Shown: piece after piece, positions 24,001 through 27,000 of the stretch | How positions within the stretch are numbered: the first letter of the stretch is position 1 | Layout of the letters: the number at the start of each line of letters is the position of its first letter | Source: a plasmid | NCBI RefSeq assembly: GCF_053078305.1 | Contig: NZ_CP166875.1 | Strand: one strand, 5' to 3' | Length of the DNA stretch: 64,000 nt | Made by a program: the position numbers

Positions 24001-27000
24001 GTCCGCTTGGAAAACGGAAATTTTCCCACGCTAAGAGAATTGAGTTGAACGAGTGGTTACATCCAAGCCAGCTAACTCACTGAACGTAAAGGCTGTACGA
24101 AATGTTCCGACCGTCCGGATTCCTGACAGTCATTTGGCTAAAAAATAGTCTTAACGTGGTTTATTTTCCGAATTCCAGGCTGACCCCATAAAAGCATCCT
24201 TCAGTTCAGCGTCGATTCTTAAACTCATATTAACCTGTGCCATTCATCACCTCGTCATTACCACGTATATACACAGTATATAATTATTCAGATATCGTCA
24301 CCATGATATGCCGCGCCAGCAACATGGAAGGCGGCACTCCATGCTGTATATGGCAGAGGAGTAAAACCGCCGAATCCCGGCGTAAGCCGGTACAGTCGTC
24401 CGAATGTCAGTAGTTCTACTCCCCCCTGCGAGGCCAGTGCTGACGCGGGACATGGAACGGGTGCTGGAGCGAAGTGGGGAAGCTCCGGTATACTGGCCAA
24501 ACCTACACGCCTCCTTCCGTCTCCGGGAAGATGCTGGCTTCGTACCCTGCGTGCGTCTGATCTGTAGCTGGCCGTGGCACGGCTACGGACAGATTCTGCT
24601 CCGCAACAGTATCGGCGTGCCTGACCTCCTGAAAGTCCCGTAACGCATTTTCTCACCTCCCATGCCCTGACGCTATTGAGCGCGTTACAGAACAATTTAA
24701 GTCATTTAACGAGCCTCCAACGGCTCGATCGAAATAAATCAAATCGTAATCGTCAACGATATATGAGAGGAGACCCCGCTCGCCGCAAATCGATGACCGA
24801 ACGTAGTGAGCGAATCGACGAGGAAGCGGAAGAGAACCTGTACGAAAATGGAGCAATTACGCCCCACCGTCAAGAAATGAGCTGGCTCTCCACGGCGCGC
24901 CATCATAGACAGATGTGGCTCTGCAACTGCGCCATGCGATCGGAGACCGACCAGTAATTATCTTTAATGCCCGGTTCGACACCCGCATTCTGAAACAGAC
25001 TGCTGCCGCACATAGCGATCCGGCTGACTGGCTGGAAGAACTGACAGTATATTGTGCGATGGAACTGGCAGCAGGATATTATGGGGCCACCAACCGCTAT
25101 GGCACGATTTCTCTGGCCTGTGCTGCCAGCAGGCCGGACTGACATGGGAAGGGCTGGCACACTCAGCTGATCGCCGACACACGGATGACGTCAGGGGTGG
25201 TAAACGCTATTACTGCATATCATCAGGAATTGCTGCAGCTTATGTACTGCGATAACCCTGAACTCAACTATGCAAACCTGAAATCCCTGCAAAAACAGCT
25301 GGATGAAATGTATACCTGCATCCGTAATAATCAGATGATGCTCCCAAACTACGGAAAAATGCGCCGGTATGGTGAACCGGTTTCAACAACGTTTGTAGAG
25401 TCGACAATCAACGAAGTGATCGCCAGACGATGACCCAAAAGCAACAGATGCAGTGGGGTAAGGAAGGTACGCATTATTTGTTACAGACCAGAACCGCTGT
25501 CCTGAATAATTAACTGCAGGACAAATTCGCCAGTTGGTACCCGGGTTGCACGATAGACGCTCAGAGTGGAGGAAAGTTATCCGCCATGGCAGCATAACTA
25601 CTTCCCCAGTTTTTTCAGCTCTCCCTTACCAATATCCTACGACGATCACATCGAAAAAAAAACACGGAACAGGCGAACAGAAATATAATTAATTATTTGA
25701 GTTTAAAGGAAAAAAGAGGATACAAGCTTTTTGTTGTATTTTTATTTGTATAAACCGACAAAAAAGAGGCCATACTTCCCGCTTTCTTTGTCTGTTTACA
25801 CGGAACATTTCACCACTGGATACGCTAATAGATCGGATATGAGCACATATTACGCCCGCCTTTCATGCAGAGCATAAAATGAACAAGATTCACGCTAATT
25901 ATTACCTGCAAGATTCTACCGCACGCCAGATAGTTCAACGCACAATGGGGATTATTCCGTACTCGGTAAATGTGATGAACGAGCATGGGATGATCATCGC
26001 TTCCGGGGAAGCCTCACGTTTACATCAACGCCATGAAGGTGCGGTACTCGCATTGACCGAAAACCGGGTCGTCGAAATTGATTCCGCGACCGCCAATAAG
26101 CTTAAAGGCGTTAAGCCCGGAATCAATTTACCGATTAATTTTCGCGACCAGCTGATTGGTGTACTGGGCATTACCGGCGAGCCTGGTGAAGTGAAGGCAT
26201 ATGCACAGTTGGTGAAGATGGCTTCGGAATTAATCATTGAACAAATGGCTCTCCTCGAGCAAAAACAGTGGGATAAGCGTTACCGCGAAGAGCTGATTAA
26301 TCAGCTGATTTTACGCGATCCGCCACCGGACTCACTGAATGCGGTGGTCTCATGGTTGGGAATTAATCTCCAGCTTCCGCGGGTGGTGGTGATTATGGAA
26401 CTGCAACAACCTGATCGCGACGCACTGCATAATCTGATGGAGTATTTTGAATATCGCGCCCGCGACCATTTGGTCACGTTTTCCGACTTTAATGATCTGA
26501 TAATCTTAAAACCTATCTCGCTAAAAAACGGCGTCTGGGATAAATCGTTGGAATTAAGCGATCTGCAGAGACTTAAACATTACGCCCAGTCCTGTGGTTT
26601 TTCCCGACTGATTGTCGGCGGCTATTTCTCTGGAGAAAACGGCCTGCATCGCTCTTTTCAGACCGCGAAATCCACCCAGTCCATGGCGAAAAGACTGAAG
26701 TTGAAGCATCAGTTCATTTTTCATGACGACTATGCGCTGGCATCATTATTAGATGGGCTTTCTGGTACCTGGCAAGCGGAAGAATTATCCAAAATCTGGC
26801 GCAATCTGGTTGCCAAGGACACCAAAGGTATGCTGCAAAAAACGCTGCAGAATTATTTTGATCATAATTGTGATCTTTCGCAAACAGCGACTGGCTTGCA
26901 TATTCATGTCAATACATTACGCTATCGACTGCAGAGAGTGGAAGATATTACAGGAATACAAATCAATAACTTAAAGCAGTTATTCTGGCTGTATATCGGC

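What the first reader, a model, noticed from the sequence alone, without database searches (positions are those of the whole stretch)
24186..25433. Decayed duplicate of the relBE/exonuclease module beside vapBC
A 208-bp segment carrying the relB/parD promoter and first 19 codons is repeated at 24186 and 40094, and a frameshifted 3' fragment of the exonuclease gene lies at 24915-25255. Together with palindrome copies 2 and 3, this indicates a segmental duplication of the palindrome/exonuclease/relBE block that was later overwritten by vapBC and eroded. The duplicated promoter could still titrate the RelB repressor.
Basis: seen in the sequence. Interest (0 to 1): 0.35.

Follow-up and report, generated by a model that had tools for sequence, protein, structure and literature searches.

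The report
Leftover scraps of a plasmid toxin-antitoxin block
The repeats are real, but they are ordinary wreckage on a mosaic E. coli IncF plasmid: a yacAB/exonuclease block was cut out and replaced by a foreign vapBC cassette, and an older, unrelated exonuclease pseudogene scrap lies nearby.

Summary
Observation confirmed. Window 24186-24393 repeats 40094-40302 directly (91%, E 2e-81). Window 24878-25238 repeats 39094-38734 in inverted orientation (92.5%, E 2e-151). Palindrome plus flank 23156-23215 repeats 38601-38661 (95%).

Interpretation only partly right. A relative (NZ_CP045714.1) is 99.9% identical across 24186-26000 and has an intact palindrome-exonuclease-yacB-yacA block at this site. 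So vapBC plus transposon debris (23216-24185) did replace that block. What remains is the palindrome edge and a 19-codon yacA stub with its upstream region.

- The exonuclease scrap is not part of that event. It is inverted, lies beyond the yacA upstream region, and coexists with the intact block in the relative. It carries two frameshifts and a stop, and sits between a ColE1-like fragment and an ISKra4-family fragment.
- The two copies are not a duplication within this plasmid. Sister plasmid NZ_CP075653.1 is colinear with window 2482-38344 and carries the stub but no intact module. The intact copy belongs to a canonical IncFII repA-ori-yacAB-exonuclease backbone that starts at 38344.
- The 208-bp repeat is more than a promoter. 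Its outer 86 bp is a conserved hairpin element of the replicon flank.

Repressor titration is possible but has no support. Low interest.

The parts
22619..22652 (.). 34-bp palindrome, copy 1 (1 mismatch to copy 2)
22681..23148 (-). 155-aa conserved hypothetical ORF flanked by palindrome copies 1 and 2. The ORF plus one palindrome forms a 542-bp unit that is present in NZ_CP045714.1 and pVM01 but absent at site B.
   Evidence: no Pfam or NCBIfam hit
23161..23215 (.). Palindrome copy 2 (23161-23194) plus a 21-bp flank. This is the left edge of the lost exonuclease-yacBA block. Homology to intact modules stops at 23215/23216.
23243..23994 (+). Foreign Phd/YefM-antitoxin (23308-23562) and PIN/VapC-toxin (23562-23978) cassette with its own upstream region. 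The nearest relatives are 89% identical, on ~36-38 kb plasmids beside parA.
   Evidence: Pfam PF02604 and PF01850 above cut-off
23998..24117 (+). Tn3-family 38-bp terminal inverted repeat (23998-24035) plus an 82-bp relic. It begins where the vapBC homology to pE105-2 ends.
   Evidence: 36/38 identical to the IR abutting a Tn3-family tnpA in L008; the same relic occurs in thousands of IncF/IncI plasmids
24118..24185 (-). Last 11 codons and downstream sequence of an unrelated 104-aa IncK/IncI-plasmid ORF, fused to the yacA stub. The junction shows only a short microhomology (about 4 nt, CCAT).
24186..24243 (-). yacA' stub: the first 19 codons of the RelB/ParD-like antitoxin gene. The chimeric 30-codon ORF is 24151-24243.
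24244..24307 (-). yacA upstream (promoter/operator) region. The palindrome TATATACTGTGTATATA (24266-24282) is invariant in the stub and in three intact modules.
   Evidence: no consensus sigma-70 match by scan, so the promoter is inferred from position and conservation
24308..24393 (-). 86-bp three-hairpin element conserved in IncFII origin flanks and in an IncK plasmid. It forms the outer part of the '208-bp repeat'.
   Evidence: ssDNA fold z = -2.95
24434..24577 (+). Fragment of a 196-aa IncI/IncF hypothetical gene, with indels. The annotated 79-aa 'hypothetical protein' (24404-24643) lies on this remnant.
24765..24862 (+). ColE1-type small-plasmid fragment. A related piece lies inverted at 38246-38304.
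24878..25238 (+). Exonuclease pseudogene fragment: nt 465-825 of 849 (about codons 156-275). It has -1 and +1 frameshifts and a premature TAG, and is inverted relative to the intact gene.
25239..25617 (+). 3' fragment of an ISKra4-family transposase gene that truncates the exonuclease fragment. The ORF 25185-25433 is an exonuclease/transposase chimera.
   Evidence: NCBIfam NF033572 positions 340-394 of 422, E 2.6e-12
38606..38639 (.). Palindrome copy 3, downstream of the intact exonuclease gene
38710..39558 (-). Intact 282-aa DEDDh-type 3'-5' exonuclease gene
   Evidence: PF00929, E 6.4e-15
39604..40151 (-). Intact yacB (RelE/ParE toxin, 39604-39885) and yacA (antitoxin, 39882-40151)
   Evidence: PF05016, E 4.3e-17; TIGR02385; annotated yacA/yacB in relatives
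40152..40302 (-). yacA upstream region (40152-40214) and 86-bp element (40215-40302) of the intact copy, continuous with the IncFII ori region and repA (41059-41931)

Best explanation
The window comes from a mosaic multi-replicon E. coli IncF plasmid. Positions 22619-25617 are a graveyard of recombination relics, not a working system.

(1) The site once held the standard IncF accessory block: palindrome, 155-aa ORF, palindrome, exonuclease, yacB, yacA, yacA upstream region, 86-bp replicon-flank element. A 970-bp foreign patch replaced the exonuclease gene, yacB and yacA codons 20-89 by illegitimate recombination. The patch consists of a Phd/PIN vapBC cassette, a Tn3-family inverted-repeat relic, and the tail of an IncI/IncK ORF. 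What was left is the palindrome edge and a 19-codon yacA stub with its upstream region.

(2) The exonuclease fragment at 24878-25238 is an older, independent pseudogene from another copy of the gene. An ISKra4-family insertion truncated its 3' end and a ColE1-like fragment bounds its 5' end. It was already in place before the replacement.

(3) The intact copy at 38601-40302 is not the parent or the daughter of these relics. It belongs to a canonical IncFII repA-ori-yacAB-exonuclease backbone that joined the plasmid at 38343/38344.

Shown here: the homologies, the breakpoints, the intact ancestral state in a relative, and the stub existing without an intact copy in a sister plasmid. Inferred: the order of events, the mechanism (illegitimate recombination and cointegration between IncF backbones), and the view that the relics are functionally inert.
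For: - Repeats and orientations.
- NZ_CP045714.1 (L002) positions 5303-7117 match window 24186-26000 at 99.9%. It has an intact palindrome-exonuclease-yacB-yacA block at 3810-5510 and also the inverted exonuclease fragment at 5995-6355.
- Breakpoints: left at 23215/23216; right at 24185/24186, with a short CCAT microhomology to the 104-aa ORF tail.
- vapBC DNA occurs only in this small plasmid lineage plus 89%-identical relatives on ~36-38 kb plasmids. Its homology ends at the Tn3-family IR (IR identity).
- Exonuclease fragment: two frameshifts, a stop, and substitutions at codon positions 1/2/3 of 6/7/12. The best intact allele in PLSDB is 93.4% identical.
- ISKra4 fragment.
- Site B is colinear with IncFII repA-ori-yacAB-exonuclease backbones at about 97-99% identity in all 25 records listed (1,073 records in the 95-99% identity band).
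- Sister plasmid NZ_CP075653.1 is colinear with window 2482-38344 at 99% and carries only the relics, with no intact module in the 109 kb examined.
- YacA and YacB proteins are identical between the two lineages, but the 86-bp flank is only 84% identical.
- Two metagenome contigs carrying the vapC/IR junction are the same lineage.
Against: - The donor of the vapBC/IR/ORF-tail patch was not found, so the left junction cannot be analysed.
- The direction of change between the NZ_CP045714.1 state and the window state is inferred. NZ_CP045714.1 could in principle be a repaired derivative, although a truncated stub still requires an intact ancestor.
- The first 2,472 bp of NZ_CP075653.1 were not fetched. 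They correspond by colinearity to window ~10-2481, which has no yac homology.
- The junction at 38343/38344 occurs in no PLSDB plasmid and in none of 5,426 complete E. coli genomes. Its origin, whether natural recombination or an assembly join, cannot be checked.
- Lack of function of the stub is assumed, not tested.
Confidence: 0.85

Rival explanations
1. One reading: the whole palindrome/exonuclease/relBE block was duplicated within this plasmid, and one copy was then overwritten by vapBC and eroded. On this model the yacA stub, the palindrome and the exonuclease fragment are all remains of that one copy.
For: All three pieces are homologous to the intact module. The palindrome edge and the yacA stub keep the order and orientation of the intact block.
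Against: - The exonuclease fragment is inverted and lies outside the two edges.
- It coexists with an intact block at the same site in NZ_CP045714.1.
- The stub exists in NZ_CP075653.1 without any intact copy.
- The intact copy sits in a separately acquired IncFII backbone.
- The flank is only 84% identical, against 100% identity for the YacAB proteins.
Confidence: 0.08
2. The orphan yacA upstream region is functional. It could act as a decoy operator that titrates YacA/YacAB made from the intact copy. Or it could act as a YacA-controlled outward promoter that sends antisense transcripts across the IR relic into vapC, which would couple two toxin-antitoxin systems.
For: - The operator-like palindrome and about 110 bp of upstream sequence are intact.
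- The YacA encoded at site B is identical in protein sequence to that of the stub's own lineage.
- No terminator-like site was found between the stub and vapC.
- The stub-bearing segment is 99.7% or more identical in the eight PLSDB plasmids that carry all of 22500-26000.
Against: - The identity among carriers reflects their overall ~99-100% relatedness, not selection.
- Most carriers have no yacA at all, so regulation by YacA cannot be what maintains the stub.
- One extra operator on a low-copy plasmid should be buffered by negative autoregulation (established behaviour of type II TA operons).
- No consensus promoter was detected.
Confidence: 0.07

Closest known systems
YacAB (RelE/ParE-family toxin with RelB/ParD-like antitoxin) of IncF ColV/ColBM plasmids and Shigella pINV
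   Same: The intact copy at 39604-40151 is this system. Close relatives annotate it as yacA/yacB, and the ParE_toxin domain is present. The stub is the first 19 codons plus upstream region of the same gene. The literature reports yacAB as typical of ColV/ColBM IncF plasmids (PMC4707298) and lists it among inactive TA loci on S. flexneri pINV (PMC9455713).
   Different: The copy in the finding has no toxin gene and only 19 of 89 antitoxin codons. It is a remnant, not a TA module.
Mosaic multi-replicon IncF plasmids with vestigial replicon flanks and gene remnants
   Same: There are two IncFII-type origin-flank elements with adjacent accessory blocks, one degraded. IS and transposon fragments lie at the breakpoints. 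Close relatives are typed IncFIA/FIB/FIC plus a ColRNAI replicon.
   Different: Nothing essential differs. This particular replacement (vapBC for exonuclease-yacBA) is confined to about nine PLSDB plasmids, all eight listed from STEC-associated or stool E. coli.
VapBC-type PIN-domain toxin-antitoxin cassettes on enterobacterial plasmids
   Same: A Phd/YefM antitoxin gene overlaps the start of a PIN-domain toxin gene.
   Different: At the DNA level it is unrelated to nearly all other plasmid vapBC loci in PLSDB. Only 89%-identical relatives on ~36-38 kb plasmids were found.

Membership tests
   Palindrome plus flank 23156-23215 and yacA 5' end plus upstream 24186-24393 are both direct repeats of site B.
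   It is inverted and lies outside the edges. It coexists with an intact block at the same site in NZ_CP045714.1.
   NZ_CP075653.1 has the relics but no intact copy. The intact copy lies in an IncFII backbone joined at 38344. The flank element is only 84% identical.
Type II toxin-antitoxin module, YacAB / RelBE-ParDE type | A toxin gene with a RelE/ParE fold lies next to the antitoxin gene | tested here: not met
   This holds for site A: no toxin homology anywhere in 23216-24393. Site B meets the feature (PF05016, E 4e-17).
Type II toxin-antitoxin module, YacAB / RelBE-ParDE type | A full-length antitoxin with DNA-binding and toxin-binding regions | tested here: not met
   Site A keeps 19 of 89 codons, fused to 11 foreign codons.
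Type II toxin-antitoxin module, YacAB / RelBE-ParDE type | An autoregulated promoter/operator bound by the antitoxin | not testable with these tools
   The 17-bp palindrome is invariant in the stub and in intact copies. Binding and promoter activity were not measured, and there was no consensus sigma-70 hit.
DEDDh (RNase T / DnaQ-like) 3'-5' exonuclease | A complete exonuclease domain in one open frame | tested here: not met
   The fragment covers only about codons 156-275 of the 282-codon gene and has two frameshifts and a stop. Its 75-aa ORF gets no Pfam hit. The intact copy at 38710-39558 does match (PF00929, E 6e-15).
VapBC-type TA (PIN toxin) | An antitoxin domain plus a PIN domain in an overlapping two-gene operon | tested here: met
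   PF02604 scores 36.6 bits (cut-off 29.8) and PF01850 scores 52 bits (cut-off 23.6). The TAG stop of the first gene overlaps the GTG start of the second at 23560-23564. Activity was not tested.
ISKra4-family insertion sequence | A full transposase gene | tested here: not met
   Only profile positions 340-394 of 422 match, at 46.6 bits against a cut-off of 205. DNA homology to ISKra4/ISKpn19 transposase genes covers 25240-25617 only. It is a relic.
Tn3-family transposon | A 38-bp terminal inverted repeat | tested here: met
   Window 23998-24035 is 36/38 identical to the IR abutting a Tn3-family tnpA in NZ_OQ821097.1.
Tn3-family transposon | Transposase and resolvase genes and a second inverted repeat | tested here: not met
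   Only 120 bp follow the IR before unrelated sequence begins. It is a relic.

The most novel reading that the evidence does not exclude
The orphan yacA upstream region, which faces the 3' end of vapC with no detectable terminator between them, may be a YacA-repressible antisense promoter or an operator decoy. It would link the activity of the vapBC module to the presence of the yacAB module carried by the second replicon. That would be regulatory cross-talk between two unrelated toxin-antitoxin systems, created by a recombination scar.
Probability: 0.05. Interest if true: 0.4.

Novelty: already known. Interest (0 to 1): 0.14.

Why it matters
It matters little for biology. It is a clear example of how IncF plasmids swap maintenance cassettes next to their replication origins and keep the scars.

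Practical value:
- Annotation. The 79-aa 'hypothetical protein' (24404-24643), the 82-aa ORF (25185-25433) and the 30-codon yacA' ORF lie on gene remnants and should be marked as pseudogenes or fragments.
- Plasmid history. The relics show that the stub-bearing segment and the IncFII yacAB backbone were acquired separately.
- Rearrangement potential. The 208-bp direct repeat (15.9 kb apart) and the 362-bp inverted repeat (13.5 kb apart) are possible substrates for deletion or inversion of the segment carrying the glycerate and colicin genes.

Tried and rejected
- Rfam found nothing in or near the finding. Its only hits were RNAI at 17466 and PK-repZ at 41944.
- The consensus promoter scan found no sigma-70 match upstream of either the yacA stub or the intact yacA. 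'Promoter' therefore rests on position and conservation only.
- Pfam and NCBIfam gave nothing for the 155-aa ORF, the 79-aa ORF or YacA beyond weak RelB/DinJ similarity.
- I looked for the donor of the vapBC/IR patch. The exact vapC/IR junction was absent from 100,044 species-representative genomes. It occurred in only two metagenome contigs, both of the same lineage as the window.
- I tried to confirm from the literature that the 86-bp hairpin element is the IncFII primase 'G-site' / single-strand initiation signal. Two searches returned nothing usable. That identification stays a recollection, supported only by the fold and by its position about 760-840 bp downstream of repA.
- I considered that the exonuclease fragment came from a divergent but functional allele rather than from decay. 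No intact allele above 93.4% identity exists in PLSDB, and substitutions are spread over codon positions (6/7/12). With 25 sites this is not conclusive.
- I considered the palindrome as the crossover site for cassette exchange. The left breakpoint lies 21 bp beyond it, so the replacement did not occur at the palindrome.

Full report
**Check of the observation**

A BLAST of the intact module against the whole window finds no further copies.

- 24186-24393 matches 40094-40302 as a direct repeat: 91% over 211 columns, E 2e-81.
- 24878-25238 matches 39094-38734 as an inverted repeat: 92.5% over 362 columns, E 2e-151.
- 23156-23215 (palindrome copy 2 plus 21 bp) matches 38601-38661 at 95%.

The 34-bp palindrome occurs three times in 64 kb, with none expected by chance. 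The stub retains exactly 19 codons of the antitoxin gene.

The exonuclease piece corresponds to nt 465-825 of the 849-nt gene. It carries a 1-nt deletion, a 1-nt insertion 38 nt further on, and a TGG>TAG stop. Its 25 substitutions fall 6/7/12 on codon positions 1/2/3. One fact was not noted: the exonuclease piece is inverted relative to the antitoxin piece when compared with the intact module.

**Identity of the genes**

The window is an E. coli IncF plasmid.

- The intact module at 38601-40302 is what RefSeq annotates in relatives as yacA/yacB plus a 3'-5' exonuclease.
- YacB has a ParE_toxin domain. The exonuclease has an RNase_T/DEDDh domain.
- 'vapBC' is a Phd/YefM-type antitoxin (23308-23562) overlapping a PIN-domain toxin (23562-23978), both above the Pfam cut-offs.
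- yacAB is described as typical of ColV/ColBM IncF plasmids (PMC4707298). It is listed among inactive TA loci on Shigella flexneri pINV (PMC9455713).

**The replacement**

Eight PLSDB plasmids carry all of 22500-26000 at 99.7% identity or better. A ninth, NZ_CP045714.1 (locus L002), is decisive.

- Its positions 5303-7117 are 99.9% identical to, and colinear with, window 24186-26000.
- To the left of that it has an intact yacA-yacB-exonuclease-palindrome-ORF-palindrome series at 3258-5510.
- Relative to it, the window has 970 bp (23216-24185) in place of 1,433 bp: the exonuclease gene, yacB and yacA codons 20-89.

**The inserted patch is itself a mosaic**

- 23243-23994 is the vapBC cassette with its own upstream region. 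Its DNA has no other homologue in 72,556 plasmids. In complete E. coli genomes the only relatives are 89% identical, on ~36-38 kb plasmids next to parA.
- That homology ends at 23994. At 23998 a 38-bp Tn3-family terminal inverted repeat begins. It is 36/38 identical to the IR abutting a tnpA gene. An 82-bp relic follows it, and the same IR-plus-relic occurs in thousands of IncF/IncI plasmids.
- 24118-24185 is the last 11 codons and downstream sequence of an unrelated 104-aa ORF of IncK/IncI plasmids. It is fused to yacA codon 19 across a short CCAT microhomology.

This pattern points to illegitimate recombination. The left breakpoint (23215/23216) lies 21 bp beyond the palindrome, not in it.

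**The exonuclease fragment is a separate, older relic**

- In NZ_CP045714.1 the same fragment (5995-6355) sits beside the intact exonuclease gene (3919-4767), inverted and only 92% identical to it. It cannot be debris of the block that vapBC replaced.
- Its 3' end is cut 24 nt before the stop by the 3' fragment of an ISKra4-family transposase gene at 25239-25617.
- Its 5' end abuts a ColE1-type fragment at 24765-24862.
- Between the yacA upstream region and that fragment lies a further remnant, 24434-24577. It comes from a 196-aa IncI/IncF ORF.
- No intact exonuclease allele among about 1,100 in PLSDB is more than 93.4% identical to the fragment.

**Not a duplication within this plasmid**

- The intact copy (site B) is part of the canonical IncFII backbone repA-ori-yacA-yacB-exonuclease-palindrome. 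All 25 plasmids listed are colinear with it from window 38343/38344 (a few from about 38601) onward, at about 97-99% identity.
- Sister plasmid NZ_CP075653.1 is colinear with window 2482-38344 at about 99%, apart from an IS2. At that point it continues into a different replicon flank with a higBA-like pair. In the 109 kb examined it contains the stub, the exonuclease fragment and the palindromes, but no intact yacAB or exonuclease.
- The junction at 38343/38344 is found in no PLSDB plasmid and in none of 5,426 complete E. coli genomes.
- Between the site-A lineage (as preserved intact in NZ_CP045714.1) and site B, the YacA and YacB proteins are identical. The upstream region is 94% identical and the outer 86 bp only 84%.

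The two copies are best read as belonging to two IncF-type replicon flanks brought together by recombination.

CP027641.1 shows a third state. It has a second copy of 24186-29746 that continues into intact yacA-yacB.

**What the 208-bp repeat contains**

- 58 nt of yacA coding sequence.
- About 64 nt of upstream region, with an invariant 17-bp palindrome TATATACTGTGTATATA (24266-24282).
- An 86-bp element (24308-24393) also found at the end of IncFII origin regions and upstream of a different TA pair in an IncK plasmid.

As single-stranded DNA the 86-bp element folds into three hairpins (z = -2.95). It lies about 760-840 bp downstream of repA at site B. From memory this resembles the primase 'G-site' of R1/R100, but I could not confirm that.

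**Function**

The most likely answer is none: these are neutral scars.

- The operator-like palindrome is intact, and the YacA made from site B is identical to that of the stub's lineage. Binding, and hence titration, is physically plausible.
- However, the stub is equally well preserved in plasmids that encode no YacA. One extra operator on a low-copy, negatively autoregulated operon should have little effect.
- No terminator-like site separates the stub from the convergent vapC gene. YacA-regulated antisense transcription of vapBC is therefore the most novel reading not excluded. I put it at about 5%.

**Verdict**

The kind of thing is well known: cassette replacement and gene remnants on mosaic IncF plasmids. 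Interest is low.

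Noticed in passing
window 22619-22652, 23161-23194, 38606-38639: A perfect 34-bp palindrome brackets a 155-aa ORF with no known domain. The 542-bp unit of ORF plus one palindrome is present at site A, in NZ_CP045714.1, in pVM01 and in many IncFII plasmids. It is precisely absent at site B and in NC_025145.1. Site B joins the left flank of copy 1 to the right flank of copy 2. The role of the palindrome is unknown.
   Followed up: partly
window 24308-24393 and 40215-40302; L002 1621-1706; L006 5517-5602: An 86-bp three-hairpin element is conserved at 83-90% among these copies: two IncFII origin flanks, the stub, and an IncK plasmid, where it precedes a different TA pair. 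It may be a primase/single-strand initiation site. TA cassettes next to it differ between plasmids (yacAB, higBA-like, phd/relE).
   Followed up: partly
window 38343/38344: This is the synteny break between a pSTEC17_183-a-like segment (window 2482-38344) and a canonical IncFII backbone. The junction is absent from PLSDB and from 5,426 complete E. coli genomes. It is either a rare recombinant or an assembly join.
   Followed up: partly
window 17466-17571: An Rfam RNAI (ColE1-type antisense RNA) hit at 59.8 bits. The annotated relative pSTEC17_183-a has a short 'replication initiation protein' fragment at the corresponding position. Further ColE1-like scraps lie at 24765-24862 and 38246-38304, which suggests an integrated and fragmented Col-type plasmid.
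   Followed up: no
window 41944-42094 (minus strand): A strong Rfam PK-repZ pseudoknot hit (166.7 bits) lies immediately upstream of the IncFII-type repA.
   Followed up: no
window 34704-35192: A 228-nt segment is repeated at a 261-nt spacing (72% identity). By colinearity with NZ_CP075653.1 it lies inside a gene annotated there as a colicin-like pore-forming protein.
   Followed up: no
L010 (CP027641.1 72000-86000): This plasmid carries a second copy of window 24186-29746, including the exonuclease fragment and the sugar-diacid regulator/permease/glycerate kinase genes. That copy continues into intact yacA-yacB, so the plasmid holds both the stub state and a partly intact state.
   Followed up: partly
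window 24404-24643 and 25185-25433: RefSeq annotates the 79-aa ORF as a hypothetical protein (WP_167549086.1) in relatives. It lies on a degraded fragment of another gene. The 82-aa ORF is an exonuclease/ISKra4-transposase chimera. Both are probably annotation artefacts.
   Followed up: yes
window 38710-39603: The 282-aa exonuclease follows yacB after a 45-bp spacer that is 100% conserved between lineages. Its first ~100 residues have no Pfam domain. In the plasmids listed, the exonuclease gene sits directly next to yacAB. Its role there is not stated in the two papers on yacAB that I consulted.
   Followed up: no
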